DNA from: Promethearchaeota archaeon
GTDB lineage: Archaea; Asgardarchaeota; Lokiarchaeia; Sigyniarchaeales; SOKP01
Direction of reading: 5' to 3'
Length of the DNA stretch: 52,458 nt
NCBI GenBank assembly: GCA_048939015.1
Contig: JBHLPW010000038.1
Span: 1-52,458 of the forward strand
Below, in pieces: positions 2-16,321 of this stretch (position 1 is the first letter of the stretch; every line of letters begins with the position of its first letter). Below the pieces are notes generated by a model. The model was given only the letters and a program-made list of their open reading frames with translations, was not told the DNA's origin and searched no databases. The position numbers and the translations under genes were made by a program.

Positions 2-913
2 TTCAATATGAGATGGCTGACTGATTACAAACCCTAACATTGATTCAGATATTGGTATGAATTTATCGAATTTTCCTTTGAAATTATTTTTAATTTTATC
101 TAATAAAAGTTTTTTAATAACCTGTGACTTTCCAATCTTTATATATTTGATATATTTAAAAAAGTCAGTATCGATCATTTCGCGATAAATGGATTTGTTC
201 AAATCATAAATAACAGTAGCAGGAAAGAAACATTCATCTCTCCATTTGTAAATTGAATGTCTTTTATATTGGCTCAAATCAAATATATTATCAAAAAATT
301 TTGTGATAGTTAGCTTCTCTCTATTAATCAATCCTTCTTCTCCAAAAACCTGATCCATATAAATATCTTTAAAATGTACATACACTTCAAGATCTTCAAA
401 AGTTTCCTTCAGATCTGCGATTTTATTTTTTGGAATTTTGCCTAATGAATCATCCCAATAAAGGAGTAAATTAAAAATGCTTTTATAATTTTTAAAATAG
501 ATATAAAGATCTCCTTGAGATAGATCCTTTTTTAAATCATCATTATCTTTACTCTGTTTAATTGCTATATCAATATCTATAATTTCAAAAAGCTTTTTCA
601 AAAATTCAAGAAATTTTATAAAATTCTCAAAATCACCAACAGAGGGGGGGAATATATGCCGAATAGCATTAGGGCTAGCTGATTTTAATATAGTAAAATT
701 ATTCATAAATAAAAATTGAATTATTAATTTTGGAAATTTGTTTGTAGGATCTCGTATATTTACAATTTCTTTAAATGGCGTGTCATCAGATATGGTGAAT
801 TTTTGGTTAGAGAGTCTTTTCATCTCTTTGATTATTGGTGTATCCTCATAGTATCCATAAAATTCTTTAAGGGAAGCTATAATTGGTTTCATATAATTCA
901 ATTTATCTATCAT
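2..913 (-). CDS. Hypothetical protein, truncated by the window edge (>=304 aa)
   Basis: Hand translation from ATG at 913 (MIDKLNYMKPIIASLKEFYGYYEDTP...) stays open to position 2 in very AT-rich DNA. Absent from the ORF track because no stop lies in the window. No motif recognised. Confidence 0.8.
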   Translation of the reverse strand, partial: MIDKLNYMKPIIASLKEFYGYYEDTPIIKEMKRLSNQKFTISDDTPFKEIVNIRDPTNKFPKLIIQFLFMNNFTILKSASPNAIRHIFPPSVGDFENFIKFLEFLKKLFEIIDIDIAIKQSKDNDDLKKDLSQGDLYIYFKNYKSIFNLLLYWDDSLGKIPKNKIADLKETFEDLEVYVHFKDIYMDQVFGEEGLINREKLTITKFFDNIFDLSQYKRHSIYKWRDECFFPATVIYDLNKSIYREMIDTDFFKYIKYIKIGKSQVIKKLLLDKIKNNFKGKFDKFIPISESMLGFVISQPSHIE

Positions 914-1077
914 TTCAAATCATAAATCTTCTTTGTGTCTATTATAATAATAGTTGGATGAATTATTAAACTTTTGGTGATTTATCTTATAATTTATATT
1001 AAAAATCACAACATTTAAATATGTAGTTTTTTCTTATATTTTATAAACTTAATCAACAAAAATAATAAAATTAAAAA

Positions 1078-1647
1078 GTGATAATTATGTGTTTAGAGAC
1101 TAGTTTAGTTAAAAATCCTTATCTAAAAGATATTCATGTCTATATTGATGGAAGTAATATAGCTTACTCGCGCTTTAATGAGCTTCAAAAACCAGTTTTA
1201 TCAGACTTATTATTGGTTTATGACTATTTGGTAAAAATTTTGAAATTTAAACAAGAAAATATTCATTGTATTTGTGATCCTGCCCTCAAGTATTATATTG
1301 ATAAGCCTATTGATTACCGAGGGCTAATTAGAGAGGGTGTAATTATTGAAGCACCGAAACTAGCAGATGAATTTATTCTTAGCTTCGCCCTTAAACATGA
1401 TACTTGTTTTATTATTTCAAATGATAAATTTAGAGATTACATTGAACAATTACCAAGTAGACAGTGGTTAGAAGAAAGAAGAATAAGCTTCATGATAATT
1501 AACGAAGAAGTCTGTTTAAGTCCAAACATAGATTATACTAAAATTACTGATTTTTTTTTATATAGACAATCTGATTCACCAGAAGTAACTACTATAGATA
1601 TTTTAAAGCAAATTGAAAGATCTGAAGGAGAATTAAATCTATTTTAA
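1078..1647 (+). CDS. NYN/PIN-domain ribonuclease, Zc3h12a (Regnase)-like
   Basis: Motifs VYIDGSNIA, ICD, ADEFILSFA and IISNDKFRDY supply the conserved acidic residues of the Zc3h12a-like NYN family. The true start may be ATG at 1087. Confidence 0.85.
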   Translation: MIIMCLETSLVKNPYLKDIHVYIDGSNIAYSRFNELQKPVLSDLLLVYDYLVKILKFKQENIHCICDPALKYYIDKPIDYRGLIREGVIIEAPKLADEFILSFALKHDTCFIISNDKFRDYIEQLPSRQWLEERRISFMIINEEVCLSPNIDYTKITDFFLYRQSDSPEVTTIDILKQIERSEGELNLF

Positions 1648-1669
1648 ATCACAAAAAGGAGGTGAAAAA

Positions 1670-3973
1670 ATGGTCGAAAAAGAAAAAAAATCTGTTAGTA
1701 ATTTGTTAGATAAACAATATGGAAAAATAAATTATAGTGGAAGACGCGGAAGAGCTATTCATGAAGCTTATTCTAAATATTACAAGAAAATATTTAAAAC
1801 CCCAGATCGAAATAGAAAACTTAATTATCGAGTATTTAGTGAAAGACTAACAAAGGCAAAAGCGGATATATTAGTCAATATCAAAATGAATTCTGATTTT
1901 GAGCTTTACCATGAGGATGTAAAAGTACTCCTAAATAGCTTGCATAAAGAGATACGAAAAGTAGCAAAACAGCTGGCAAAAGAGAACTATTGTATAATAG
2001 TACCAAAAGATATTGAAATTGAGCTTTTTGGTGGAGAATCTTCATTTGAAGTTGAAGCTATAGGGAAGATTGGAGGATTAGAAATCCCTGCTCAACTTGA
2101 TTGCCTAATTGAAATTGATTCAGAAAACTTTATTGTCAGAGACTTTAAATCTTATGATCGGGAAAATGAGGATGATCCAATGAATCCTAAGTCACAACAT
2201 CATCGAGCCTTTATGCAGGTATGCCTATATGCAATAATTTTCGAAAAGTTTAGATATCAGAGATGTAAAACTATTCAGTTAGCATACTTTCCAAATAAGA
2301 TAATATCTTATGACTTTACTGATGAGTTAAAAGAAGTTGCTAAAAGATTCGCAATGGACACTGCTTTTGATGGTTTTGAAGGTATTAACTTTCAATTTTC
2401 TATAGTTGATGAAAATCAAATAGAAGAGCAAGTAGCTATCGGTAGAACTACTGCTACTACACCCCCAGAGTTTCCAAGTGTTGAACAAACTTCTGATTTT
2501 CATGATGATGACAGTTTAGGTTGGATTAACACAATCAAAGGAAAACCACTACAACTTATAATGGGTCAGGATAATAAAATGGAGGGCTTTTTGTATCCTA
2601 ATAAGGCACACCGAATAAAAGTGGGCTACTGTGTTATAGTAGAAAAAGAAGATGATGGTGTTAGAATCATGTGCATTACAAAAAAAATTGAATGTTCTGA
2701 AGACTGTTTTCCAGGAGAAACTTCAAGCCATAAAGAAGAAAATTATAAAATTACGTTGATTCCAGAAGGTCAATTTACTCCAGAAGGATATCATGACTTA
2801 TTACCACAAACCGTTATTGGTGGAAAAATTAAAATTCCCACAAACGAAGAATTCTGTGAATTTAAGAAGATACCTCAAAATGGACTATCAATCGGTAATA
2901 TTCAAGGTTTGAACACAGGAATACCATATCCACTTGAAATTAAAACATTGTATCAGAGTGTATTTATGAGTGGTCAACAAGGTACTGGAAAAACTTCTTC
3001 ACTAAAATCAATGGCGCTACAAATAGCCCAAGTTATGAATGCACCCGCACAAATCATACTTGATAACGAAGGAGAATATAGTGATTTGAGAGATATTCCT
3101 ACGAATAAAAACGCTGAATATGTAATGAGAACGCACGGAATTAAAGAACTTGAACTCGGACATTTTCGCTTGATAAATATAGACACGAAAGGGGGCTATT
3201 GTCTAACATTGAAAGCAATAGATCCTGTTGATTTGCCCTATTTTCTACACGAGTTAACAGCGATCTCTCATGACACATTACAAACGATTATCTATGATAT
3301 AATTGAAGATCATAAGGAACAAGATTTTACATTGCTAGAATTAGTGAAATTAATCATAAAATACATGGAAAACAAAAAGTATGGAGCTACTGATGGAACT
3401 AAAAAGGCAATAATGAGAGCCATGACCTCGATCTCTCTAAGAATCTTTGATGTACCTGGTGTGAAACCAATTGATTTTGAATCAATTTTAGTCTCTGGAA
3501 GAGTGACCGTAATCAATACCTATAACCTACGCGATTCTCATCAGAGAATTGTTGGTCTTTATCTTTTAGCAATGCTTCATAAAAGAGCTTTAAAAGGCAA
3601 AGAGAAAATCAACGTGGTGTTTTTCTTAGATGAAATTCAAAGATTAATACCAAAATCAAAATCAACATCTGATTCAGAATATCAGAAGCGTATAATTAAA
3701 TTCTTAGATGAAGTGGTACATCGAGGCAGAAAAAGAGATTATGGTGTTGTATTTGCTACTCAGAGTGTCTCTGATGTGAAGAAAGAAATCATTGATTTAT
3801 GTAATACTAAAGTTTTCTTTCAGACCCAGGGAAGCGGAATCAATTACATAAAGGAGTATTTCAGTAACAAGGAAGATTTGGAGCGATTGAAAAAGCTTCC
3901 AGTAGGACAAGCTTTCATTACCAGTAAAGGCAAGCATGAACCAGTCGAAGTTAAATTTCCTAATATAAACTAA
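1670..3973 (+). CDS. PD-(D/E)XK nuclease fused to a HAS-barrel/HerA (FtsK-HerA superfamily) ATPase
   Basis: N-terminal GRAIHE, EIEL, QLDCL, RDFKS and QVCLYA match RecB-type nuclease motifs. C-terminal Walker A GQQGTGKT, Walker B VVFFLDEIQ, and RGRKRDYGVVFATQS are typical of HerA. Strong SD AGGAGGTG upstream. Confidence 0.88.
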   Translation: MVEKEKKSVSNLLDKQYGKINYSGRRGRAIHEAYSKYYKKIFKTPDRNRKLNYRVFSERLTKAKADILVNIKMNSDFELYHEDVKVLLNSLHKEIRKVAKQLAKENYCIIVPKDIEIELFGGESSFEVEAIGKIGGLEIPAQLDCLIEIDSENFIVRDFKSYDRENEDDPMNPKSQHHRAFMQVCLYAIIFEKFRYQRCKTIQLAYFPNKIISYDFTDELKEVAKRFAMDTAFDGFEGINFQFSIVDENQIEEQVAIGRTTATTPPEFPSVEQTSDFHDDDSLGWINTIKGKPLQLIMGQDNKMEGFLYPNKAHRIKVGYCVIVEKEDDGVRIMCITKKIECSEDCFPGETSSHKEENYKITLIPEGQFTPEGYHDLLPQTVIGGKIKIPTNEEFCEFKKIPQNGLSIGNIQGLNTGIPYPLEIKTLYQSVFMSGQQGTGKTSSLKSMALQIAQVMNAPAQIILDNEGEYSDLRDIPTNKNAEYVMRTHGIKELELGHFRLINIDTKGGYCLTLKAIDPVDLPYFLHELTAISHDTLQTIIYDIIEDHKEQDFTLLELVKLIIKYMENKKYGATDGTKKAIMRAMTSISLRIFDVPGVKPIDFESILVSGRVTVINTYNLRDSHQRIVGLYLLAMLHKRALKGKEKINVVFFLDEIQRLIPKSKSTSDSEYQKRIIKFLDEVVHRGRKRDYGVVFATQSVSDVKKEIIDLCNTKVFFQTQGSGINYIKEYFSNKEDLERLKKLPVGQAFITSKGKHEPVEVKFPNIN

Positions 3974-3981
3974 TTTTTTTT

Positions 3982-5640
3982 TCAATTTTTTTGTTTTCTA
4001 GCATCAATTTCACTAGGTGATAAGAGCTTTTTTTCACCATTTTTTCGCATATAGACTCTTAAACTTCCATCAGATGTCTTAAACCAACTTATATCTCCAA
4101 AGTTAGACGAGATTTTTATCCTAATAATTGATTTTCCTTTGTATATTCTTGAATCTATTCTGTAATTATCTTTACCTAAATAATTAAAACATCTCTGTCT
4201 TATCTCTCGCTTTAATTGATCTAAAGTCTTATTTGTCTGGTTAAGATATGGTTCTAAACCAATTATTTTTGCAGTACTTTTTTTTGATTCATCAATACCA
4301 ATAAAAATATAACCTCCTCCTGCGTTTTCGAAAGAATTGATATGACCATAAATGTCATTACCAGATCCATCACCCTTAGTTGTTTCATTAGGAATTGATT
4401 TGAATTCAATATTATAATCTTCTCCCCCTTTTTCTTCAGCATCTAATATTGTTTTGATCCATTGTTCAACAGAGGGTTCAAAAGGTTTAATTTCATCAAA
4501 AATAGAATCTTCAGAGAACATCTCTAAAATATCATCTAACTCTTTTCTTATTAAATCATAAGTAATAGGTAGGGCATTATGACTATAGATTTCTGAGGTT
4601 AAAACATTGTCTGAAGTAATAAAAGTTCTTAAAAGAATCGAATCTTCGATAAATGAATTTATGGAAGAATACTGAATTGCATACAAATGTTTTGCAGGAT
4701 AATATTCTCCAATTTCTTCTTCGATTAATTTAAATTCATTGCTTTTTTCTTCATTCAAGCTCTCATATATGAAAAGAACTTTAACATCTTCTCCTCTTTC
4801 ATTATTGTAATATTTTTGAGTATAAGCAGTGATTTTTATAGGTTGTTTAGAATACAGAAAAAATGAATTTCTAATACGAGGAAAATTATCTATTATTAGT
4901 TTTGGATAATATTCCAAAAAATCTTCCATAATTTTTTTTAAAAATTTTATTTTTTGGCTAATAGAATACAATTCTGATTGTTTGTAACCTTTTCGTTTCC
5001 TCTTAGGACCATTTAGCAATGCATCAAGTGTAATATCAGCTTGGGGTAAATTAACAGTATAAATTGGAGTTGGATTTTTAAATTTAAAATTGCTAAAAAA
5101 GAAATCAAGATCTTCTCTTAAAAAATCTATAGCTGTACCTGCTATTCCACGATATATTTTAGAAGAGGGAGAACGAAAAAAAATTCCCTTTCTATCTCTT
5201 TCTACCTCATATTTTCTATTATAATTATAAATTAATCTAGGAGCAGAATTTCCACGCTTAATTACAATGTCTTTCATTGTGGGAAAAAATAATGTTCTAA
5301 CAGATTCATAAATATCTAATTCTTTTTGAGCTAAATGAAATTGTTCTTTATATTTGTTTTTTGGATCAATATTTACCTCTATTGATAATTCTCCATAAAT
5401 ATATAATATTGCATGTGGAATTTTTGATACAATTTCGTTTTCAAAATAATCACATAATTCTTCTTCAGATGGAATACATTTAGGATCTTCTCTAAGGTTA
5501 GGACCTATTATAATACGTGAATGTAATTGATATGTCTTATTTTTAAAAATGAATGTCCCATTACTCATCTGAATTAAATTATCAGTTATTGTCTTAAAAA
5601 GATCTTTCATATTACTTAATTTTATATCAGACATCTTCAA
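3982..5640 (-). CDS. Protein with a C-terminal Schlafen/AlbA_2 domain
   Basis: C-terminal EDYNIEFKS...INSFENAGGGYIFIGIDE...IIGL...VYMRKNG pattern of AlbA_2. The ~400-aa N-terminal region is unrecognised. Confidence 0.8.
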   Translation of the reverse strand: MKMSDIKLSNMKDLFKTITDNLIQMSNGTFIFKNKTYQLHSRIIIGPNLREDPKCIPSEEELCDYFENEIVSKIPHAILYIYGELSIEVNIDPKNKYKEQFHLAQKELDIYESVRTLFFPTMKDIVIKRGNSAPRLIYNYNRKYEVERDRKGIFFRSPSSKIYRGIAGTAIDFLREDLDFFFSNFKFKNPTPIYTVNLPQADITLDALLNGPKRKRKGYKQSELYSISQKIKFLKKIMEDFLEYYPKLIIDNFPRIRNSFFLYSKQPIKITAYTQKYYNNERGEDVKVLFIYESLNEEKSNEFKLIEEEIGEYYPAKHLYAIQYSSINSFIEDSILLRTFITSDNVLTSEIYSHNALPITYDLIRKELDDILEMFSEDSIFDEIKPFEPSVEQWIKTILDAEEKGGEDYNIEFKSIPNETTKGDGSGNDIYGHINSFENAGGGYIFIGIDESKKSTAKIIGLEPYLNQTNKTLDQLKREIRQRCFNYLGKDNYRIDSRIYKGKSIIRIKISSNFGDISWFKTSDGSLRVYMRKNGEKKLLSPSEIDARKQKN

Positions 5641-5679
5641 TTCTTTTCTTTTTCGTTAAATCTACACTTTAAACCCTTT

Positions 5680-5811
5680 TTATTTTTTAGAACTCTTATC
5701 TGCAGCACTCATAGAACGTGATTTAAACCCCTTATCGCCTTTTGAGCCTTTCTTATCTTGACTTGATTGAATCCTTCTTGCGGCTTTTTGAGTCATTTTA
5801 CTTTTTGCCAT
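5680..5811 (-). CDS. Small basic hydrophilic protein (43 aa), SMP/LEA-like
   Basis: ATG at 5811 follows a strong SD (AAAAGGTGGTGG). Translation MAKSKMTQKAARRIQSSQDKKGSKGDKGFKSRSMSAADKSSKK. The MT..AA.RIQS...GF..R..SAA pattern recalls small SMP-domain-like proteins. Below the ORF-track cutoff. Confidence 0.75.
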   Translation of the reverse strand: MAKSKMTQKAARRIQSSQDKKGSKGDKGFKSRSMSAADKSSKK

Positions 5812-5844
5812 TTAATTACCACCACCTTTTATATTATTTTTACA

Positions 5845-6258
5845 TTATCTTTTTGTAAGTTTGCCACATTTAGGGCACTTATACCAATTAAACTCCTTTA
5901 GAAGAGTCATTGCTTTCTTGCATTTTATACAATAAATCCCTGATGTTTTATTTTTATTGACATTTTTTGGAGATTCTAATTTTAATATTGGTTTATTTCT
6001 CGAGAAATTTTTTAATGGTTTTAACTGAAAAACAGTTGCTCCATTATCAGAGAAGTCTTTACTGATAATTATATGCCCATTCTGAGTAGCATCGTTTAAA
6101 AATCCCTCTGAACGAAGATAGTCTCTTATCTTAGTACCATGTTTATATCCATGTATTATTTCCAAACTATTATCTCCAATTTCCTTACATTCATCAAATT
6201 TAAACATTATTTCATCTATTGCGTCTTTTAGAAAAAGATTATGCACATCTAATTTCAT
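5845..6258 (-). CDS. Smr/MutS2-domain protein with C-terminal Zn ribbon
   Basis: KLDVH...LEIIHGYKHG is Smr-like; C-terminal CIKC...CPKCG. Confidence 0.75.
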   Translation of the reverse strand: MKLDVHNLFLKDAIDEIMFKFDECKEIGDNSLEIIHGYKHGTKIRDYLRSEGFLNDATQNGHIIISKDFSDNGATVFQLKPLKNFSRNKPILKLESPKNVNKNKTSGIYCIKCKKAMTLLKEFNWYKCPKCGKLTKR

Positions 6259-6586
6259 TTCGCTAAGGTTTATTACTTATTGTATAAAATTGGTCAATTT
6301 TGTTTATATCTATTTTGATTTCCAATCTATATAAATTTTAGTGTATAGTCTAAAATCTCTTATATAGTGAAAGAATTATTTATTTAGATTCAAAATCCGA
6401 TAATTAAAGACTCAAGATTCTGACAAAAACCTAAGTTTAAATTCGTATTGGAGAAATAAGCTCGGGTGATTTTAAGTGGAAACTCAGAAATTCGAAAATT
6501 GCAGTTTATGGGCTCGATCTTTGGAATTAGAATAATCTTTTATTAAAATAAGAAATTTTTACAATTTCAAACCATTATATATATTA

Positions 6587-7360
6587 ATGAAACTCAATGA
6601 TATTGAAATTAAAGAGCGAATTAAATTGCTTGAAGAATATAAAGAAAATCTTCAACTAATTAAAAACAATCTTCATAATGAAGATAAACTTAATGAAATT
6701 CATGAATTTATACTATCCAAATCAGGAATAATTCAGTCTTATCTTGAAGATATTGGATATAAGGTTGATAATAATTTTTTAAGTAAAGCACTAAACTTTA
6801 CAAGTATTCCATCATATTTTTTTGCTTTATCAACAAAACAAGAAACTATAGTAGATATTTATTTCTCAAAACCTATTACAATTCTAGCTCAATATATTGA
6901 TAGGTACAGGAAATATAAAGATGTTAATAATATATATCTTCAAACTGGTTCAATTCTTGAACTGGAAAAAATATTAATTAAAAATATATATGAACAAGTC
7001 TTAAAGAATCCAGATTTGTATCATTCTTCCTCTCGAAGTATTTCAAATTCACGTAAGAGAGCTGTCAAAATACGAGATCAATACCAATGTCAGTTATGTC
7101 AAAAAATTTTTGAAGAAGATAATTTAGTAATTGATCACATATTTCCATTTAGTCTAGGTGGCTCAAATGAAAAGATTAATTTAATGAGTTTATGTAAAAA
7201 ATGTAATGATGATAAAGGAAAAAGACTTGATTATTATAGGAGTGAGGAAGGGAGAATAAAATTAGAGGAAAACATTCAATCTTTTGTAAGAGACTTATTG
7301 ATTATTCAAAACTTTGGAAAATGGTTGAAAAGAGCAGGAAATGCTCGAGGTAACACTTAA
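6587..7360 (+). CDS. HNH endonuclease
   Basis: VKIRDQYQCQLC...IDHIFPFSLGGSNEKINLMSLCKKCNDDKG is a canonical McrA-type HNH motif. Confidence 0.9.
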   Translation: MKLNDIEIKERIKLLEEYKENLQLIKNNLHNEDKLNEIHEFILSKSGIIQSYLEDIGYKVDNNFLSKALNFTSIPSYFFALSTKQETIVDIYFSKPITILAQYIDRYRKYKDVNNIYLQTGSILELEKILIKNIYEQVLKNPDLYHSSSRSISNSRKRAVKIRDQYQCQLCQKIFEEDNLVIDHIFPFSLGGSNEKINLMSLCKKCNDDKGKRLDYYRSEEGRIKLEENIQSFVRDLLIIQNFGKWLKRAGNARGNT

Positions 7361-7730
7361 TCGATATAAAGTTTTGAATATATTAAATATCTCATAGATA
7401 AAAACAAGACTGTACAAAAAATACGAGACAAAGTTTATTAGAGATTATTGAAATTCTCTCAGATGCAAGGTTTAAAATATTTAAAGATGTAAGAAAAGCT
7501 AAAGATTAATTCCATTTTAACAGAAAATAAAGAATAATAATAATTCGAACAACATTAAAAAATTGAGCACTCAAGGATTTAAAATCTTTTTATTTATAAG
7601 TATCTATTGTATAATTCAGATTTGGGAACTTTCAAAAAAAAGAAATCTCCGGTTTTTTGAAATAGAAATTTTTTATTTATAAATGATTGACAGATCTTTT
7701 TTACAAACTTAAAACAAGGAGTTTGGAAAA

Positions 7731-8363
7731 ATGACTGAAATCGAACAAAGTAATACAATTAAGTCTGGTTTTCAAAATGAACTGTTCCAACAATTAGAGG
7801 GACTATTCGAAGTATATTTATTAAAAGATATTCGTGAAAAATTAAGAAAAAAGCTTAAAACCTTGGAAAAAATGATAAAGGGAGAAATTAACACAAAATT
7901 TGCCAACAAATTAGAAGCTTTTAAAATAATTTCTACAGAAAAAAATCATAAATTTAAAGAGCTTATGTTAAGACTTGAACCAAGGTATAACATTTTCAAA
8001 TTAGTGAGAGAGCTTAAAAATAACCAACAATACCTCAATAATCTCGATAAGGAGAGAAGGAAGCGACATGTTGATGCAGATCAATATGAGATTACTAAGG
8101 GGTATTATCTCCAGAAATTGATTGATATACATGAATCAGTTGACCAATTGAAAGAAGGTGCAATAACTTATTATCAAAAATTAAAAGGTGATTTAATTAT
8201 GCTTGAAGATCGTCGTATTAGATTAACTACAGAGAAGCTGAGAAAAAAAATAACTAAAGAAGAATTCAAGGATAAATCTAATGGGATTGAGGTCTTAAAA
8301 CATAATTTAGAAGAGAAGTTGGCTTTCTTAAAAGTAGAAATTATTGATTTAGAAATTGAATAA
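7731..8363 (+). CDS. Coiled-coil hypothetical protein
   Basis: K/E/L-rich helical sequence with SD AAGGAG upstream; no catalytic motif. Confidence 0.7.
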   Translation: MTEIEQSNTIKSGFQNELFQQLEGLFEVYLLKDIREKLRKKLKTLEKMIKGEINTKFANKLEAFKIISTEKNHKFKELMLRLEPRYNIFKLVRELKNNQQYLNNLDKERRKRHVDADQYEITKGYYLQKLIDIHESVDQLKEGAITYYQKLKGDLIMLEDRRIRLTTEKLRKKITKEEFKDKSNGIEVLKHNLEEKLAFLKVEIIDLEIE

Positions 8364-8382
8364 AGAAGGGAGGTAAAATTGA

Positions 8383-8736
8383 ATGGTAAAATATTATAAG
8401 CATAATAGAACAATAAAACTCTTAACATTATTTGGAGGACTCTCCAGTTTACTTTATTGTTTATTTCAAATATCAACTACAACTGAGTTAATTACATGGT
8501 ATCTTATCTTTGGGTTCGATAGATTTGTACATAATCTTATTGGTATGATATTTGCAGCATTGACGTTATTTACTGCCTTTAAACCTTATGATCCACTTCC
8601 ACGACATTGGCTTCTTCTTTTAGTATTTGGAATACTAACCATTATTTTCAGTTGGATAATAGCAGGAGTATTAGTAATAGCTAGTGCTATAGTATGTCTC
8701 TATGATGATATTTTTAAGAAAAAAACCTTTTTTTGA
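8383..8736 (+). CDS. Small integral membrane protein
   Basis: About 3-4 hydrophobic segments; SD GGGAGGT upstream. Confidence 0.7.
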   Translation: MVKYYKHNRTIKLLTLFGGLSSLLYCLFQISTTTELITWYLIFGFDRFVHNLIGMIFAALTLFTAFKPYDPLPRHWLLLLVFGILTIIFSWIIAGVLVIASAIVCLYDDIFKKKTFF

Positions 8737-8814
8737 TTTTTTTTTTCATAACTAATTTTTCTTTATAAATAAGTGCAAGTATAATTTTCTAAAATTAAAT
8801 TTATAGAATTAAAA

Positions 8815-11800
8815 ATGAATAAGAAAAGACATAAAATCCTGATTTTTTGGAGTATTTTTCTGTTTATCGGATTATCAACAACTATTATTGGAGGTATAAG
8901 TCGAAGTTCAAAACCTTTATATTATGAAACGAAGAATAATAATGAATTAACTGAAAATCCTCTAATTTCAAACCCACAGAGTAACTATGAGATAATTACA
9001 GACACTTTTGCGAATAAATTAAATCAATATTCCTCTTTTGGGTACTTTCCTCAAATATATCAGTCCTCTCTGCAAGCTACATATTATGCTCTGTATATTC
9101 TTGAAGCTCTCGACGAATTAGATCAAATAAATCAAACAAAAATTACCGATTATATCATTTCTCATTATGATGAAAGTTTACAAATCTTCATGGATGAATA
9201 TTCTTACAGATATTTAGACACAGATTTTTCTCAATGCTATTATCCTTTTACTTCTGTTCTTGAAGTTAATTGTTATGCGATATTGTCCTTAAATATACTG
9301 GGGCAATTGGACTTGATAAATAGTCAAGATTCAATAGACTTTATCTGGAGTTGCTGTAATCCAGAAAGTTCTGAAAATGGGTTTATAGGACAGCCTTATG
9401 ACTCAAATTTAGTAAATAAGTTTAAAATAGCAACAATGGATAATACCTACTATGCTCTTAGAACGCTTGACTTATTCTTGAATGATTGGAGCGGATATGA
9501 TAATGAAATGACAAGAATTACGCAGTATATTAATGGATTACAAATGGTTAATGGAGGGTTTAATAATGATAATAATAGCACTTTTGATTCTCTTACTTCA
9601 CTCATTTTTGAACCAAATTTACTATCCTCATATTACTGCATTAAGAGTTTAGAAATATTAAATCTAATAAATACGATAAAAATCACTGATTTTTACCAAT
9701 ATTTAGACAACCTGTATGATGATTCCCTTCATACCTTCCAGATATGTAGCTTTGGGATGCCGGACTTTTGTAATATCATTGCTACCGCATTAGGTTTAGA
9801 ATTATCAAATATAACGGGATATTCAAGCATTAACAGTGCAGGAATAATAAATTTCCTTTTGTCTAACCGAAATAACTTAGGTAATTGGGATTCATCAACA
9901 GTTTTTCAAAATCATGAACTGATTGATACCTTTCAGATAATTCGAAGCTTAAAAGAATCAGGGGAAATTTATCATTTAACTACTCAAGATAAAAGTCAGA
10001 TAGCTAATAGTATGGGTTATTTTAAGCAAAATTATGGATATTCTTTAATTTCTAATGATTATATGTCAATTGACCTTATCTACACTATTGTACAATCATT
10101 TGATTTATTCAATAGTATCCCCGATTTAGATATACAAGGATTATATAATGCAATTGAAGATGCATTTCAATATTTTAGCTTTATTGATTGTTATGGATTT
10201 TCTGGAAGTACAAATTTTAAAAATTTTATTGGATTTCGGTCTTATCCTATCGAATTTTATAATCTAGGTTATCGTCGATATACACATGAAATTGACGGAC
10301 TATATAATCATAAATTTAATTATAAAGCGTTAAGTTCCCTACAAAGTATATTTAAGTTAGATGACCTTAATTCATACTATGATTTAACAATATTAATCAA
10401 TAATATCTTAGATTCTCAGTTCTTAAATTCAGAATTTGAAAATTTTGGAGCATTTTTACCATTTTTAACAGATACCTTAAAACTTCCTGAATCTCAAAAT
10501 AAAAGTATATTTTTAGAAAGTAGTTATTATGCTATTAAAACATTAGAATTGTTGGTTGATTTTTTAGATCTTGGAAATATTGCTAATTTAACATTTAATA
10601 AGGGTGCTTTATATGGATTCGTTAATAGAAACTTGCATGAAACTAATTCAATGATATATTTCAAAACACCATATGCCTCAAATACAGAAGAAATTCTTAA
10701 ATGTACATATTACTCGATATATATCATTAAAGCTTTAAACTTATTTGATTTGGATAAGGTGAAATTAAAAGATTATGTTTTATTTAATACAGATTATTCC
10801 AATGTAGAAAACATTTACTATTCTTTTAAGATCTCTGAAATTTTAGATTTTGAAATTGATTTTAATGCTACATTAACGAATTCCTTAATTAAGCAAATAT
10901 ATTTTGAAAATGAAAATGAATTTTATGAGAGTTTTAAGAGATTAGAAATTGATCAAGAGATTTTTTTGTGGATCTGCGATATGGCGAGAAATAGTGAGTT
11001 ATATATTGAATGCGATTATATTCCATCAATTTCGTTAGGAAGCGTTAACACAATCACAGCATATTTTAGTAATTTAATTTTCAAGGAATACGGACAATTA
11101 ACTACTGTTACTTTTGTAAGCACTGAGTTTGGAACCTTAAGCCTAGAAGAACAATTTGACAATTCATACCAAATTAACTTTTTGGTACCAGAAGACCCAA
11201 AATATCTTCCTTCTATTGAAGGAACATTAAATATATATGATCATTCGGAACTTATAGGACAAGTTCCTATTTTTTTCGAAACAACCTTTGAACAGATAAT
11301 AGATTATAAGGTGACAGAAAATGATAAAGAAATAACCTTCAATGTAAATGTCTCCCGTAAAATCAATTCAGAGTTTCATCCTATTCACAATTCAACAGTT
11401 GTGGTTCATGTATTTAAGGATGGTTTATCTGGGGAAGCAATAAATTTCACTAAAACAGATTTGACAACATATTCGAAATTTTCCTGCAATTACAAATGTG
11501 AAGGATCTGGGAATTACTTTTTCAATATTACTCTCGTCGATAAATTCTACCCAAATGGATTATTCTTATTTGAATATGAGATAAAACCAGATTTATATAT
11601 ACCTTCGCAACCAATACCGCCTCCAGAACCAATAATTCCTCCTCTATTTGGTCTTTTTGATTTGAATGGGATTATTTTAGCAATATTAGCTTCGATAATC
11701 ACAGCAATAACAGTAGGTGGTGTAATATGGTGTGGAAATTTGATAAAAAAGAAAATTCATGGTGAAACAGGAGATGTTTTTGAAAAAGTTATAGAGAAAA

Positions 11801-11856
11801 ATCAAGGTAGTGACATGAAACAAAAGTATCCAGTTCTTTTTGAAGACTGGGATTAA
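8815..11856 (+). CDS. Large membrane-anchored protein with prenyltransferase/squalene-oxidase-type (alpha/alpha barrel) repeats
   Basis: Repeated T/S-YYA/C-(L/I)...L units (ATYYALYIL, NTYYALRTL, SSYYCIKSL, SSYYAIKTL) and GGF/NGF turns. N-terminal signal/TM, Pro-rich linker, C-terminal TM. Confidence 0.7.
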   Translation: MNKKRHKILIFWSIFLFIGLSTTIIGGISRSSKPLYYETKNNNELTENPLISNPQSNYEIITDTFANKLNQYSSFGYFPQIYQSSLQATYYALYILEALDELDQINQTKITDYIISHYDESLQIFMDEYSYRYLDTDFSQCYYPFTSVLEVNCYAILSLNILGQLDLINSQDSIDFIWSCCNPESSENGFIGQPYDSNLVNKFKIATMDNTYYALRTLDLFLNDWSGYDNEMTRITQYINGLQMVNGGFNNDNNSTFDSLTSLIFEPNLLSSYYCIKSLEILNLINTIKITDFYQYLDNLYDDSLHTFQICSFGMPDFCNIIATALGLELSNITGYSSINSAGIINFLLSNRNNLGNWDSSTVFQNHELIDTFQIIRSLKESGEIYHLTTQDKSQIANSMGYFKQNYGYSLISNDYMSIDLIYTIVQSFDLFNSIPDLDIQGLYNAIEDAFQYFSFIDCYGFSGSTNFKNFIGFRSYPIEFYNLGYRRYTHEIDGLYNHKFNYKALSSLQSIFKLDDLNSYYDLTILINNILDSQFLNSEFENFGAFLPFLTDTLKLPESQNKSIFLESSYYAIKTLELLVDFLDLGNIANLTFNKGALYGFVNRNLHETNSMIYFKTPYASNTEEILKCTYYSIYIIKALNLFDLDKVKLKDYVLFNTDYSNVENIYYSFKISEILDFEIDFNATLTNSLIKQIYFENENEFYESFKRLEIDQEIFLWICDMARNSELYIECDYIPSISLGSVNTITAYFSNLIFKEYGQLTTVTFVSTEFGTLSLEEQFDNSYQINFLVPEDPKYLPSIEGTLNIYDHSELIGQVPIFFETTFEQIIDYKVTENDKEITFNVNVSRKINSEFHPIHNSTVVVHVFKDGLSGEAINFTKTDLTTYSKFSCNYKCEGSGNYFFNITLVDKFYPNGLFLFEYEIKPDLYIPSQPIPPPEPIIPPLFGLFDLNGIILAILASIITAITVGGVIWCGNLIKKKIHGETGDVFEKVIEKNQGSDMKQKYPVLFEDWD

Positions 11857-11945
11857 ATCTCTTTTTTTTTTAACTTTCCAATTTAAGTTTACTTTTTATT
11901 CTTTTATTGGAATAAACAATAAAGAGTAAATTCAGTTAAAACTTT

Positions 11946-13733
11946 ATGGTAGAAATTTGTAAAAGTAATTTATTAAAGGAAAAAGCTAAGATTAAATTTC
12001 ACAAGAAAATTATATTAATTTCACTTTTTATCATCAATATTTTTACTTTCTCGGTTTATTCATTAAATGAAGGGAAAATTGATGCTTCTGTAAATTATCA
12101 AGAACTTAAAACAGCTAATATTATTGGTACTGACGATCGCGTGAGAGTTACATCCAGTACATCTTATCCTTGGAGTACAGTTGTTAGATTGCATATCACG
12201 TGGGGAACATATAATACATTCGCTACAGGTGCTTTAATAGATAAAAATCATGTGCTAACAGCTGGACATTGTGTTTATTCACATACACATGGGGGTTGGG
12301 CTGACAGTATTAAGGTTGTACCTGGAGAAGATAATGGAAACGAACCGTATGGATACGCTTGGGCAATTAAGATGCGTTGTTATGATGATTGGAAAAATTT
12401 TGCTTCTCCTGAACATGATTTTGCGCTTCTAACACTCGATAGAGATATTGGCTTGACAACTGGATGGATGGGATTGTATACAACATTATCTTCAAGCTCA
12501 ACATATTCAGAACTATTATATACGGCGGGTTATCCTGCTGAATTGGATAATGGAAGAAATATGTATTGGACTAATGATTATGGGTATGAAGCAAATGAGT
12601 ATAATCATTGGTATTATTTAGATACCAGTGATGGTCAAAGCGGCGGTCCTATATGGATATATGATAACGGATTACCGTATATTCTATCCGTTGTTACTTC
12701 TGGTGTAGTTGGATTAAACATTAACTATGGTACGAGAATAAACCAAAATAAATACTATTGTATCGATAATTGGATAAGTGCTGATGAAACATCTACTGAT
12801 AAACCTGACTTAGTATCCGAATATAGTGAATTAGCGGGGTATAATGTAGATATGGTTGGAGCAGGAATAACCCCATTTGAAACATGGTGTAAAGTACGTA
12901 ATATAGGAACGAGTTCGGCAAATAATATAATTATATCATACTATGCATCAAAAGATACTACTATTAGTAAATCGGATTATTTCATCGGAAATGACATTGT
13001 TCAATCTCTAACTCCTACAGCTTCTATAGATTCTCATTGGTCTGGTACATTCCCTGATAATATTCCTAGTGGAAATTACTATATAGGCTGGATCATAGAC
13101 TCAGATAATTCAATTGATGAATTCAAAGAAAATAACAACTTTAACTTTGTATGGACTTCCCAATTGTTAGTTGATGCTACTCCTCCAAATAATCCGACAG
13201 ATTGTACTCAATTAAATGGCACAACTGAAAGTGCTGTATTACAGAATACTATTTCTAATCCCGAATTTAGTTGGAGTGGAGCTGTGGATTCGCATACAAG
13301 TGTAGTGGGATATTATTATTACTGGGGTGGAGACCTTTATGGAACTTCAACCAAATTTACTTCATTACCATATTATGATCCCTCAGTAGTTAATAATGGA
13401 ACTTATTATTTGAGAGTCTGTACCCAAGACATTGTGGGTAATTTAGCTCCATGGATTACACTTTATGTATTTAAATATGAAGATAAAATTAATAATACAA
13501 ATGGCGATCCCTTTGATAATTCCACTGTAGATCCTACTGATGATCCTAATGATAACCCCATTGATGATTCTGATGAAGATCTAAGTGATAATACTAACAA
13601 TGATGTCGAAGACGATCCTAATAACAATGACAACATTAACTTAGGAGAAAATCTTATGTGGGAATATATCCTTACTATTGGGATATTGGGCTTGTTAGTT
13701 TTTTTATTTTTAAAAGTGTACTCGAGAAGATAA
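11946..13733 (+). CDS. Secreted, membrane-anchored trypsin-like serine protease (glutamyl endopeptidase type) with a CARDB-like domain
   Basis: IIGTDDRVRV mature N-terminus, TAGHC (His), HDFAL (Asp), GQSGGP (Ser). CARDB-like PDL...VRNIG...IDEFKENNN, then a D/N/P-rich linker and C-terminal TM. Confidence 0.88.
   Translation: MVEICKSNLLKEKAKIKFHKKIILISLFIINIFTFSVYSLNEGKIDASVNYQELKTANIIGTDDRVRVTSSTSYPWSTVVRLHITWGTYNTFATGALIDKNHVLTAGHCVYSHTHGGWADSIKVVPGEDNGNEPYGYAWAIKMRCYDDWKNFASPEHDFALLTLDRDIGLTTGWMGLYTTLSSSSTYSELLYTAGYPAELDNGRNMYWTNDYGYEANEYNHWYYLDTSDGQSGGPIWIYDNGLPYILSVVTSGVVGLNINYGTRINQNKYYCIDNWISADETSTDKPDLVSEYSELAGYNVDMVGAGITPFETWCKVRNIGTSSANNIIISYYASKDTTISKSDYFIGNDIVQSLTPTASIDSHWSGTFPDNIPSGNYYIGWIIDSDNSIDEFKENNNFNFVWTSQLLVDATPPNNPTDCTQLNGTTESAVLQNTISNPEFSWSGAVDSHTSVVGYYYYWGGDLYGTSTKFTSLPYYDPSVVNNGTYYLRVCTQDIVGNLAPWITLYVFKYEDKINNTNGDPFDNSTVDPTDDPNDNPIDDSDEDLSDNTNNDVEDDPNNNDNINLGENLMWEYILTIGILGLLVFLFLKVYSRR
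13495..13640 (+). repeat. Low-complexity Asp/Asn/Pro linker (D-D-P-type repeats) inside the protease gene
   Basis: GDPFDNSTVDPTDDPNDNPIDDSDEDLSDNTNNDVEDDPNNNDN; recurring GATGATCCT-like units. Confidence 0.6.
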
Positions 13734-13792
13734 CGATTAGATGGATGTGAATTATAATTTTTTTTTAAATAAAATGAAATTTAGAATTTTAT

Positions 13793-15850: not shown

Positions 15851-16005
15851 AATATCAATAATTTTTGACAAAAATTAGCTTTATTGATTATTCAGTTAGA
15901 AAATAGACTAAAATAATTTATAAATTAGAATATAAATCTTTTTTATTATTATCATTTATTTCTAGAAAAACAATCAAAAAAATAACAAAATTAAGATGAT
16001 AACTA

Positions 16006-16302
16006 ATGACCGAAGCAAAGACGCCAATTGTGATAAGTAAGGAAGACTGTCATAGATGTGCGGAATTAAAGGAATGGTTAAAGGAAAATGACGTTAGATA
16101 TATTGAAAGGGATATAAATGATGAGGAATTTGTACATGAGTTATTACATGATGACAATTTTTTAACAACGTTCTGTGATGCAGACGGTTGTATTGTAAAT
16201 ACACCGGTGGTAATACATAAAGGAAAGTATTGGTTTAAAGAGCTCTGGGGTGTATCTGGTCTTAGAGAGAAAGAAGCCAAGAAATTATTTGGAGTTAAAT
16301 AA
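16006..16302 (+). CDS. Glutaredoxin-like protein
   Basis: SKEDCHRC CxxC motif, Y.ERDI, and cis-Pro motif TPVVI. Confidence 0.8.
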   Translation: MTEAKTPIVISKEDCHRCAELKEWLKENDVRYIERDINDEEFVHELLHDDNFLTTFCDADGCIVNTPVVIHKGKYWFKELWGVSGLREKEAKKLFGVK

Positions 16303-16321
16303 TTCTTTTTTTATTTATACC

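What the first reader, a model, noticed from the sequence alone, without database searches (positions are those of the whole stretch)
1078..3973. Candidate undescribed two-gene defence system: Regnase-like NYN RNase plus nuclease::HerA fusion
Seen: two co-oriented genes 22 nt apart, with a strong SD before the second and a T-tract after it. Gene 1 is a Zc3h12a-type NYN RNase with intact acidic motifs; gene 2 is a PD-(D/E)XK nuclease fused to a HerA ATPase. Established: HerA paralogues pair with effectors in anti-viral systems (Sir2-HerA, DUF4297-HerA), whereas housekeeping HerA works with NurA/Mre11/Rad50, none of which is in this window. Inference: a HerA motor carrying its own DNase and coupled to an RNase from the same family as the animal immune regulator Regnase-1, giving dual DNA/RNA targeting or abortive infection. 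I do not recall this pairing as a named system.
Basis: partly seen in the sequence, partly recalled or inferred. Interest (0 to 1): 0.88.

Follow-up and report, generated by a model that had tools for sequence, protein, structure and literature searches.

The report
Asgard nuclease-HerA motor with docked NYN
A Lokiarchaeal genome carries a rare, patchily distributed gene set in which a DNA-pumping HerA ATPase fused to a Cas4/RecB-type nuclease sits next to a Regnase-like NYN nuclease that ends in a short conserved tail; it is most likely an undescribed variant of the HerA-plus-nuclease antiviral systems, but nobody has tested it.

Summary
Gene 1 (1087-1647, +) is a Zc3h12a-type NYN nuclease. 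Gene 2 (1670-3973, +) is a Cas4/RecB-like PD-(D/E)XK nuclease, then a HAS barrel, then a HerA ATPase. They lie 22 nt apart, with GGAGGTG before gene 2 and a T-tract after it.

- **A real unit.** The same genome has a second, diverged copy of the pair. NYN lies directly upstream in 18 of 35 informative related loci.
- **A private tail.** A ~20-residue C-terminal tail marks the NYN partner. In this genome only the two NYN genes beside the two fusion genes carry it. An unrelated small partner protein in another clade has the same tail.
- **NYN is dispensable.** On the fusion tree it looks ancestral, but it was lost at least six times and replaced once.
- **Not just two genes.** A large divergent gene is usual. 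Here it is an SMC/Rad50-like ABC ATPase cut by the contig end; elsewhere it is a wHTH-TPR protein or DpdB.
- **Accessory.** The fusion occurs in 9 of 400 genomes of the phylum. No PADLOC system matches as a whole, and I found no paper that names it.

Verdict: a new variant of HerA-effector or "HerA/FtsK capture" defence systems. The defence role is inferred. This scan reached similar conclusions on other genomes (e1-3326836, e1-5620762).

The parts
2..913 (-). First 304 aa of a divergently transcribed large protein: an N-terminal domain of unknown family that, in full-length homologues, is followed by an SMC/Rad50-like ABC ATPase. The gene runs off the contig start.
   Evidence: No Pfam hit of its own. 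Homologues sit at the same divergent position in L045 (965 aa, 57% id), L046 (1421 aa) and L041 (479 aa). These carry SMC_N (E 1e-26), AAA_23 and AAA_15 after the shared N-domain. A matching C-terminal piece (LSGGE, IIDEP, HHH_5) lies at the very end of contig C103 of the same genome. The join between the contigs is inferred.
914..1086 (.). AT-rich divergent intergenic region between the SMC-like gene and the NYN gene; presumed promoters.
   Evidence: Sequence read. No promoter test was done, because the sigma-70 scan does not apply to archaea.
1087..1647 (+). Gene 1: Zc3h12a-type NYN (PIN-like) nuclease, 186 aa. The ORF is open from GTG 1078; ATG 1087 is the likely start.
   Evidence: Pfam PF11977, E 2.5e-10. 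PDB matches to ZC3H12A/B/C and KHNYN. Conserved acidic and SND motifs in 18 homologues, which start MCLE.
1579..1644 (+). C-terminal tail of gene 1 (PEVTTIDILKQIERSEGELNLF), a candidate docking peptide for the fusion protein.
   Evidence: It is the only part shared with the unrelated small partners of another clade (hhalign prob 94%, E 8.8e-8). A tail HMM hits only the two partner genes among 30,446 frames of this genome, and only the upstream partners in the related loci. Codon-position identities of 0.62/0.79/0.47 show protein-level constraint. Binding itself is inferred.
1658..1664 (+). GGAGGTG Shine-Dalgarno-like motif 5 nt upstream of the gene 2 ATG, within the 22-nt gap.
   Evidence: Read directly.
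1670..3973 (+). Gene 2: single-chain Cas4/RecB-like nuclease, HAS barrel and HerA ATPase, 767 aa.
   Evidence: Pfam PDDEXK_1 + DUF87 + AAA. AF2 model with pLDDT 78. Foldseek top hits are HerA chains. 85 near-full-length homologues of >=49% identity, none with a functional name.
1742..2365 (+). Nuclease domain (residues ~25-232): PD-(D/E)XK of the Cas4/RecB/AddB/AdnAB/Exo5 type, with D144, D158-F-K160 and Q183xxxY187.
   Evidence: Domain model with pLDDT 88. VIA Z 12.0 (Cas4 7mi4), 11.2 (AdnA), 10.9 (ACE1), 10.3 (AddB). Foldseek E 1.6e-5. Invariant residues. No conserved four-Cys cluster.
2366..2506 (+). Variable, acidic, probably disordered linker (residues ~233-279).
   Evidence: pLDDT 28-44 in the model. 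Poorly aligned and length-variable among homologues.
2507..2929 (+). Beta-rich HAS-barrel-like region (residues ~280-420).
   Evidence: All-beta secondary structure in the model. Covered by the structural alignments to HerA chains.
2930..3970 (+). [quoted passage not shown]
   Evidence: Pfam DUF87/AAA. PADLOC mad8 1.1e-20 and HerA 5.5e-19, domain-level only. Invariant residues.
3974..3998 (+). T-rich tract after the gene 2 stop, overlapping the 3' end of the convergent AlbA_2 gene (3982-5640, -).
   Evidence: Read. Terminator function not tested.

Best explanation
This is an accessory conflict (antiviral or anti-plasmid) module of Lokiarchaeia-type Asgard archaea.

- **Core.** The core is the gene 2 protein. 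I infer that it forms a HerA-type hexameric ring that pumps DNA. Its own Cas4/RecB-like nuclease domains are tethered by a flexible linker on the HAS-barrel side, which is where NurA, Sir2 or DUF4297 sit in solved HerA complexes. Translocated DNA would therefore be cut by the same polypeptide.
- **NYN partner.** The NYN nuclease is an add-on second effector. I infer that it is recruited through its ~20-residue C-terminal tail. The evidence is that the tail is private to partners of this fusion and is kept when the NYN body is swapped for an unrelated small protein.
- **Divergent gene.** The divergent large gene probably senses or loads onto target DNA, or regulates the operon. Here it is an SMC/Rad50-like ABC ATPase; elsewhere it is a multi-wHTH-TPR protein or DpdB.
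- **Shown.** Domain identities, intact catalytic motifs, conserved adjacency, tail specificity, patchy distribution, and repeated partner loss or replacement.
- **Inferred.** Hexamer formation, DNA pumping, tail docking, the nucleic-acid target of NYN, and the defence role itself.
For: **The genes form a unit**
- A second copy of the pair lies on contig C47 of the same genome: NYN 62% and fusion 43% identical, same order.
- Of 35 loci that keep the fusion start and at least 700 nt upstream, NYN is directly upstream in 18. One further locus has an HTH gene between the two.
- In 135 genomes of the same family, all 5 full-length tail-bearing NYN genes touch a fusion gene. About 60 other NYN-domain hits there lack the tail.

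**The tail**
- It is the only region shared by the NYN partners and the small partners.
- Genome-wide it occurs only on the two partner genes, and in the related loci only on the upstream partners.
- The constraint is at the protein level.

**Enzymes look active**
- Invariant catalytic residues in both proteins.
- Folds are HerA and Cas4/RecB-like.

**Accessory character**
- Found in 9 of 400 genomes of the phylum, 7 of 134 in the family and 3 of 53 in the genus.
- A relative in the same genus keeps only a C-terminal fragment, residues 508-767.
- On the fusion tree, NYN loss needs 6 changes.

**Neighbourhood**
- In the window: a Schlafen/AlbA_2 protein, a weak Smr hit (below Pfam's cut-off), and an HNH nuclease.
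- On C47: an HNH nuclease, a truncated MCM and two more HerA-like ATPases.
- In the small-partner clade: DpdB (PADLOC E 7e-29) and a TGT-like gene.
- In two loci: Csa3-like HTH genes.

**Canonical repair partner is elsewhere.** A NurA gene lies on contig C107.

**Precedent.** HerA with nuclease or NADase effectors, and REase-HerA/FtsK fusions, are established or proposed defence systems (PMC11291478, PMC11514289, PMC10853773).
Against:
- No known defence system is detected as a whole.
- The neighbours are suggestive domains, not named systems.
- HerA, nucleases and an SMC/Rad50-like ATPase are also the parts list of the archaeal HerA-NurA-Mre11-Rad50 end-resection operon.
- HerA-like ATPases are common in archaeal mobile elements (PMC4158269, Table 1), and the C47 copy sits near an MCM-like gene.
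- NYN is missing in 7 of 35 informative loci, so it is not essential to the core.
- The join between contigs C103 and C8 is inferred, not assembled.
Confidence: 0.6

Rival explanations
1. An accessory DNA-end-processing or repair machine, parallel to HerA-NurA-Mre11-Rad50 or to AddAB/RecBCD. The SMC/Rad50-like ATPase would recognise DNA ends. The HerA ring would translocate the DNA. The fused RecB-like nuclease and the PIN-like NYN nuclease would resect it.
For: - The four activities match the archaeal end-resection operon: ABC ATPase, HerA and two nucleases.
- The nuclease fold is the one used by the helicase-nucleases AddAB, AdnAB, RecBCD and Dna2.
- The best structural match of the motor is the HerA of a HerA-NurA complex.
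Against: - The distribution is very patchy, 9 of 400 genomes.
- There are two diverged copies in one genome.
- A close relative holds only a decayed fragment.
- Partners are variable and interchangeable.
- A NurA gene lies elsewhere in the genome.
- The SMC-like partner is seen at only 4 loci.
Confidence: 0.2
2. Cargo or working machinery of an integrated mobile element or virus, used for DNA pumping, partition, packaging or competition between elements rather than for host defence.
For: - The C47 copy is flanked by a truncated MCM, an HNH nuclease and two more HerA-like ATPases.
- HerA-like helicases are among the commonest families in archaeal 'dark matter' islands and are viewed as possibly viral (PMC4158269).
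- The patchy distribution fits mobility.
Against: - The pattern scan of IMG/VR viral contigs found no relative.
- The proteins scanned beside either copy gave no integrase or capsid hit, and the window holds no tRNA gene.
- The joined C103-C8 island appears bounded by redox housekeeping genes.
- A packaging ATPase would not need a fused RecB-like nuclease and a NYN partner.
Confidence: 0.13
3. The conserved tail is not a docking peptide for the fusion protein. It is instead a general short linear motif, for example a PCNA- or SSB-type interaction tail or a degradation tag. On this reading the NYN gene is only loosely linked to gene 2.
For: - The tail ends in ...L-x-L-(F/Y), a pattern reminiscent, from memory, of C-terminal PIP-like or aromatic docking tails.
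- Some loci work without any tail-bearing partner.
Against: A general motif should occur on other proteins. The tail HMM finds none in 30,446 frames of this genome or 7,380 frames of the related loci, apart from the genes directly upstream of a fusion gene.
Confidence: 0.07

Closest known systems
DUF4297-HerA and Sir2-HerA (Nezha / 'Gao_Her') anti-phage systems
   Same: A HerA-type ring ATPase is coupled to an enzymatic effector encoded next to it. The motor's fold matches these HerA chains (Foldseek E 1e-18 to 1e-16). In both cases the module is accessory.
   Different: Here a Cas4/RecB-like nuclease is fused to the N-terminus of HerA, and the separate partner is a NYN nuclease with a private C-terminal tail. 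No Sir2 or DUF4297 is present. The PADLOC HerA models of those systems match only weakly (E 1e-8 to 3e-3). Sequence similarity to solved HerA is marginal (E 0.0014).
DndH of DndFGH and other 'HerA/FtsK capture' systems (PMC10853773, PMC12839542)
   Same: A PD-(D/E)XK-fold endonuclease and a HerA/FtsK-class ATPase lie in one polypeptide. They associate with rapidly varying wHTH proteins, and the proposed role is to intercept and cut invading DNA. The small-partner clade lies beside DpdB and TGT-like genes, and TGT is a component of the BRC capture system in PMC12839542.
   Different: DndH is ~1700 aa, with an inactive helicase, TRDs and an inactive methylase, and its nuclease lies just before the ATPase without a HAS barrel. 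Here the protein is 767 aa: a RecB/Cas4-type nuclease, a linker, a HAS barrel and a HerA ATPase. No DndF/G is present.
Archaeal HerA-NurA (with Mre11-Rad50) end-resection complex
   Same: A HerA hexamer with a nuclease on the HAS-barrel side. It gives the best structural matches (9x1m, 4d2i). An SMC/Rad50-like ABC ATPase gene lies next to the operon in this window.
   Different: No NurA or Mre11 is adjacent; NurA is on another contig. The nuclease is fused and of a different fold. The distribution is patchy rather than housekeeping.
MADS (methylation-associated defence system; bioRxiv 10.1101/2023.03.30.534895)
   Same: The best PADLOC matches are mad8 for the fusion's ATPase (E 1.1e-20) and mad3 for the SMC-like neighbour's homologue (E 2.6e-31).
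   Different: MADS is an eight-gene bacterial operon with an N6-methyltransferase. No methyltransferase was found among the neighbours scanned. The MADS profiles were built from HHpred alignments against PDB, so the matches are probably generic to HerA-like and SMC-like ATPases.
Regnase-1 / ZC3H12 family and KHNYN (eukaryotic NYN RNases)
   Same: The same Pfam family, PF11977, and conserved catalytic motifs.
   Different: There is no CCCH zinc finger or other eukaryotic accessory domain. The similarity is at domain level only (PDB E 0.004-0.5). The same NYN subfamily occurs in this archaeal family as ~150-aa stand-alone proteins and as TPR-NYN fusions.

Membership tests
Zc3h12a-like NYN nuclease domain (PF11977) | Profile match above the curated cut-off | tested here: met
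   40.7 bits against a cut-off of 23, E 2.5e-10, residues 20-146.
Zc3h12a-like NYN nuclease domain (PF11977) | Conserved acidic/Asn catalytic residues of the PIN-like fold | tested here: met
   D64, D94-E95 and S111-N112-D113 are invariant and D21/N24 nearly invariant in 18 homologues. The aligned motifs IDGSN and SND match ZC3H12B/C. Activity was not assayed.
Regnase/ZC3H12 proteins proper | CCCH zinc finger following the NYN domain | tested here: not met
   Pfam scan at E<=1 found no zinc-finger family. The protein ends 40 residues after the NYN core, with the tail.
HerA (HAS barrel + HerA/FtsK-class ATPase) | DUF87/HerA central-domain profile match and HerA fold including the N-terminal barrel | tested here: met
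   PF01935, 33.9 bits against a cut-off of 23.2. Foldseek top 40 hits are all HerA chains, E down to 1.5e-21.
HerA (HAS barrel + HerA/FtsK-class ATPase) | Intact Walker A, Walker B and arginine finger | tested here: met
   G440-K441-T442, D654-E655 and R658 are invariant in 15 homologues. The assignment of R658 as the arginine finger is inferred.
HerA (HAS barrel + HerA/FtsK-class ATPase) | Hexameric ring that translocates DNA | not testable with these tools
   Six copies (4,602 residues) exceed the complex tool's 1,000-residue limit. Inferred from the fold only.
Cas4/RecB-like PD-(D/E)XK nucleases | PD-(D/E)XK core with the D...(D/E)xK and QxxxY motifs, and the family's fold | tested here: met
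   PF12705, 30.8 bits against a cut-off of 22. D144, D/E158-x-K160, Q183 and Y187 are conserved. VIA Z 12.0-8.3 to Cas4, AdnAB, ACE1, AddB, RecE, MGME1, Exo5, RecB and Dna2.
Cas4 proper | Four conserved cysteines binding an Fe-S cluster | tested here: not met
   Only C199 is invariant and C185 nearly invariant in 20 N-domains. I therefore file it as RecB/Cas4-like, not as Cas4.
Sir2-HerA / DUF4297-HerA defence systems | Adjacent Sir2 or DUF4297 (Cap4-like) effector | tested here: not met
   The partner is NYN. PADLOC gives no hit for it, and Pfam shows no Sir2 or DUF4297 in the neighbours.
HerA-NurA-Mre11-Rad50 repair operon | Adjacent NurA and Mre11 | tested here: not met
   No NurA or Mre11 among the window genes scanned. 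The genome's NurA is on contig C107.
HerA-NurA-Mre11-Rad50 repair operon | Adjacent Rad50 | tested here: inconclusive
   The divergent gene is an SMC_N/AAA_23 ABC ATPase by homology. It is cut by the contig end. Whether it is Rad50-like or of a defence type (LmuB, PtuA or mad3-like matches) is unresolved.
MADS | Eight-gene operon including an N6-methyltransferase | tested here: not met
   Only mad8- and mad3-like ATPase matches. No methyltransferase in the genes scanned.
'HerA/FtsK capture' systems (as defined in PMC10853773) | Active endonuclease combined with a HerA/FtsK ATPase, plus variable DNA-binding (wHTH) components, in mobile neighbourhoods | tested here: met
   Nuclease-HerA fusion. 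Divergent multi-wHTH-TPR genes at about 17 loci. Patchy distribution. This is a loose class, not a family with a profile.

The most novel reading that the evidence does not exclude
The fusion protein is a hub that accepts interchangeable 'plug-in' partners through one private ~20-residue C-terminal docking tail. The partners seen so far are a Regnase-type NYN nuclease or an unrelated small protein. Different divergent sensors feed into the hub: an SMC-like ATPase, a wHTH-TPR protein, or DpdB with DNA-modification genes. This would be an Asgard-specific modular immune platform. Its effector exchange would work by a peptide tag rather than by domain fusion. Its NYN arm would belong to the same family as animal antiviral RNases.
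Probability: 0.35. Interest if true: 0.72.

Novelty: new variant of a known kind. Interest (0 to 1): 0.6.

Why it matters
HerA-based defence is so far known from bacteria, where the effectors are separate proteins (Sir2, DUF4297). Archaeal, and especially Asgard, immunity beyond CRISPR, RM, viperins and Argonautes is poorly mapped.

This family would add three things:
- A self-contained nuclease-motor.
- A partner-recruitment tail that can be tested directly with small peptides and truncations.
- A Regnase-type NYN nuclease in the closest prokaryotic relatives of eukaryotes.

It also shows how such systems change. The NYN partner was lost at least six times, replaced once, and combined with three kinds of upstream sensor genes. 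The fusion architecture also occurs, unnamed, in bacteria (Myxococcota and Pseudomonadota leads). A functional result would therefore reach beyond Asgard archaea.

Tried and rejected
- **Complex prediction.** Fusion alignment A1 with NYN alignment A2 as a 1:1 complex returned 'no answer' (score 0.00, below the mark). This counts neither for nor against binding. A hexamer could not be submitted because of the size limit.
- **Viral contigs.** The pattern scan found no relative. It relies on two short patterns, so it is weak evidence of absence.
- **RNA genes.** Rfam and tRNA scans of the window found nothing.
- **Known systems.**
  - PADLOC gave no whole-system match. I judged the mad8 and mad3 matches generic, because the MADS profiles were derived from PDB-wide HHpred alignments.
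  - The NCBIfam matches (VirB4, CedD, HerA_antiphage) were far below their cut-offs.
- **Literature.** Searches for NYN with HerA, Cas4-like with HerA, and Asgard defence found no description of this pair. The library lacks most subscription papers, and Iyer et al. 2004 on FtsK-HerA could not be read.
- **Rejected: chance adjacency.** Duplication of the pair and recurrence across loci rule it out.
- **Rejected: the tail as a nucleotide-level regulatory element.** Third codon positions vary most.
- **Rejected: a housekeeping role.** The module is present in 9 of 400 genomes.


Full report
**What is there**

The window is the first 52 kb of contig C8 of a 4.86-Mb, roughly 29% G+C metagenome-assembled genome. 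Named homologues place it among Lokiarchaeia/Promethearchaeota.

- **Layout.**
  - Two co-oriented ORFs lie at 1078-1647 and 1670-3973.
  - They are 22 nt apart, with GGAGGTG at 1658-1664.
  - A T-rich tract at 3974-3998 abuts a convergent gene.
  - Homologues of gene 1 start at MCLE, so ATG 1087 is the likely start.
- **Gene 1.**
  - It is a Zc3h12a-type NYN domain: Pfam E 2.5e-10, above the cut-off.
  - PDB sequence matches are ZC3H12A/B/C and KHNYN.
  - The acidic and SND motifs are conserved.
  - It has no zinc finger, so it is not a Regnase orthologue.
- **Gene 2.**
  - Pfam finds PDDEXK_1, DUF87/HerA and AAA.
  - The whole-protein AF2 model has pLDDT 78, and its top Foldseek hits are only HerA chains: HerA-NurA, Sir2-HerA and DUF4297-HerA.
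  - The N-terminal domain folded alone has pLDDT 88. It matches Cas4, ACE1, AdnAB, AddB, RecE, MGME1, Exo5, RecB and Dna2, with Z 12.0-8.3.
  - The motifs D144, D/E158-x-K160, Q183xxxY187, Walker A and B, and R658 are conserved.
  - The four-Cys cluster of true Cas4 is missing.
  - A ~47-residue low-confidence acidic linker joins the nuclease to the HAS barrel.

**Is the pair a unit?**

Yes.

- The same genome has a second copy on contig C47, in the same order: NYN 62% and fusion 43% identical.
- The fusion family has 85 near-full-length members of at least 49% identity in public data. All come from Loki-type MAGs or marine sediments, and none has a functional name.
- I collected 7 genome loci and 80 metagenome loci. 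Thirty-five of them keep the fusion's start and at least 700 nt upstream. Their upstream gene is as follows:

| Upstream of the fusion | Loci |
|---|---|
| NYN directly upstream | 18 |
| NYN with an HTH gene in between | 1 |
| A different 111-144-aa protein with no Pfam family | 8 |
| A 94-aa tail-bearing ORF, not classified (L051) | 1 |
| No small partner | 7 |

- In 135 genomes of the same family, the five full-length tail-bearing NYN genes all touch a fusion gene. About 60 other NYN-domain hits lack the tail. These are ~150-aa stand-alone proteins or C-terminal domains of TPR proteins.

**The tail**

- NYN partners and the unrelated small partners share only their last ~20-25 residues, with consensus TT(L/I)DVL..IE.(S/T)EG.(F/L).L(F/Y). 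hhalign gives probability 94%, E 8.8e-8.
- I built an HMM of this tail and searched it against all 30,446 stop-to-stop frames of at least 40 aa in the genome.
  - It hits only the two NYN genes beside the two fusion genes (E 2.4e-11 and 5.8e-10).
  - The next best hit has E 2.6.
- In 7,380 frames of the related loci, it hits only the genes directly upstream of fusion genes.
- Pairwise nucleotide identity by codon position is 0.62, 0.79 and 0.47. The conservation therefore acts on the peptide, not on a DNA or RNA signal for gene 2.
- The simplest reading is a docking peptide that recruits whichever partner carries it to the fusion protein. This is an inference; no tool result shows binding.

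**Evolution and distribution**

- The fusion is found at E<=1e-30 in 9 of 400 genomes of the phylum, 7 of 134 in the family and 3 of 53 in the genus. One occurrence is in another family, labelled Heimdallarchaeota.
- One same-genus genome keeps only residues 508-767 of the fusion, next to an AlbA_2 gene.
- On a maximum-likelihood tree of 30 fusion proteins:
  - NYN-linked members are spread over the whole tree, including the basal clade.
  - The 'no partner' state needs six changes.
  - The small-partner state forms one clade.
- NYN therefore looks ancestral, repeatedly lost and replaced once.
- The window's fusion sits in a clade (77-82% identity) whose other members mostly lack NYN. Its NYN is closest to that of a locus whose fusion is only 43% identical. 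This suggests reshuffling between copies.

**Third components**

A large gene transcribed divergently from the operon is usual.

- **wHTH-TPR protein.** About 17 loci, including the C47 copy, have a protein of 716-1377 aa with two or three MarR-like wHTH domains and TPR arrays. It occurs with or without NYN. Only seven proteins in this genome have that wHTH module. TPR-NYN fusions elsewhere in the family hint that TPR and NYN work together.
- **DpdB.** In the small-partner clade the divergent gene is DpdB (PADLOC E 7e-29), and a TGT-like gene lies nearby.
- **SMC-like ATPase, in this window.**
  - The divergent gene here, at 2-913 (-), is cut by the contig start.
  - Its homologues at the same position in three other NYN loci are SMC_N/AAA_23 ABC ATPases of 479-1421 aa.
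  - A matching C-terminal piece, with the ABC signature, Walker B and an HHH domain, lies at the very end of contig C103.
  - Beyond that piece lie redox housekeeping genes like those to the right of the island in the window.

The remark that no Rad50-type gene is in the window does not hold as stated.

**What it is like**

- The nearest experimentally studied systems are DUF4297-HerA and Sir2-HerA (PMC11291478, PMC11514289, PMC11472057).
- The nearest described architecture is the nuclease-HerA/FtsK fusion of DndH and the 'HerA/FtsK capture' systems (PMC10853773, PMC12839542).
- The module meets none of the defining partner requirements of those families (see Membership tests).
- PADLOC's best matches are mad8 for the fusion and mad3 for the SMC-like neighbour. 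They are at ATPase-domain level and probably generic, because those profiles were built from PDB-wide alignments.
- The same single-chain architecture exists, unnamed, in bacteria. One example is a Pseudomonadota 'Dna2/Cas4 domain-containing protein' of 1017 aa. An Atlas cluster of 73 mostly Myxococcota proteins is a lead only.

**Function**

- I favour a defence or conflict role (0.6). The grounds are patchiness, paralogy, decay, partner turnover, suggestive neighbours (AlbA_2, HNH, a weak Smr hit, DpdB/TGT, Csa3-like HTH, further HerA-like ATPases) and precedent.
- An accessory end-resection or repair machine (0.2) fits the parts list but not the distribution.
- A mobile-element function (0.13) fits the C47 context, but the viral-contig scan and the absence of integrase or capsid genes give it no support.
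- Nothing has been tested experimentally, and I could get no expression data.

**Relation to earlier notes of this scan**

After I had reached the tail and partner-swap result independently, a look-up showed two earlier follow-ups on other genomes with like conclusions: e1-3326836 and e1-5620762. They are not independent evidence.

- The genome-wide exclusivity of the tail.
- The tree showing repeated NYN loss.
- The SMC-like third gene across the contig break.
- The TPR-NYN fusions.

Noticed in passing
L101 (G000:C47) 1053-16832: The second copy of the module sits in a 16-kb stretch. That stretch also holds a 596-aa HerA-like ATPase next to a truncated MCM (429 aa), an HNH protein (319 aa), and a 657-aa HerA-like ATPase next to a 683-aa wHTH protein. 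A thermosome gene follows. Three HerA-class ATPases in 15 kb suggest a defence island or an integrated element.
   Followed up: partly
L019 (G019:C11) 6589-8783: A same-genus genome keeps only the last 260 residues of the fusion (87% identical), directly after a 403-aa Schlafen/AlbA_2 gene. In the window, an AlbA_2 gene (3982-5640, -) is also the immediate neighbour. The recurrence of AlbA_2 may be meaningful.
   Followed up: partly
L113:394-1908, L107, L112, L115, L120, L108: In other genomes of the same archaeal family, the same NYN subfamily occurs as the C-terminal domain of TPR-repeat proteins of 345-504 aa, without the tail.
   Followed up: partly
L046:885-5150 (-): A 1421-aa homologue of the window's divergent gene combines the unknown N-domain, an SMC-like ABC ATPase and a C-terminal DUF87/HerA-like P-loop in one protein.
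   Followed up: no
L015, L018, L030, L033, L044 (upstream and downstream of the fusion): The small-partner clade is embedded in a conserved cluster. It contains a DpdB-like gene (PADLOC E 7e-29), a TGT-like gene (350 aa) and several conserved genes of unknown function. This resembles a Dpd-type DNA-modification locus.
   Followed up: partly
L041:2904-4175 and L043:4656-5852: A 398-424-aa protein with a C-terminal Csa3/ArsR-like HTH (PADLOC Csa3 E 8e-8; AAA_14 weak) is inserted directly upstream of the fusion. In L043 it stands in place of NYN.
   Followed up: no
window 5845-6258 (-), 6587-7360 (+): A small protein with a weak Smr hit (E 3.7e-4, below Pfam's cut-off) and a 257-aa HNH endonuclease follow the AlbA_2 gene. 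Smr-domain proteins of the same cluster recur downstream of the fusion in L018, L031 and L032.
   Followed up: partly
window 13793-15850 (+): A 685-aa ORF has a weak LAGLIDADG_3 match near its C-terminus (E 1.2e-4). It may be a homing endonuclease or an intein-containing gene.
   Followed up: no
G000:C107:6230-7111: The genome's only NurA homologue stands without an adjacent DUF87/HerA gene within 1.5 kb on either side.
   Followed up: partly
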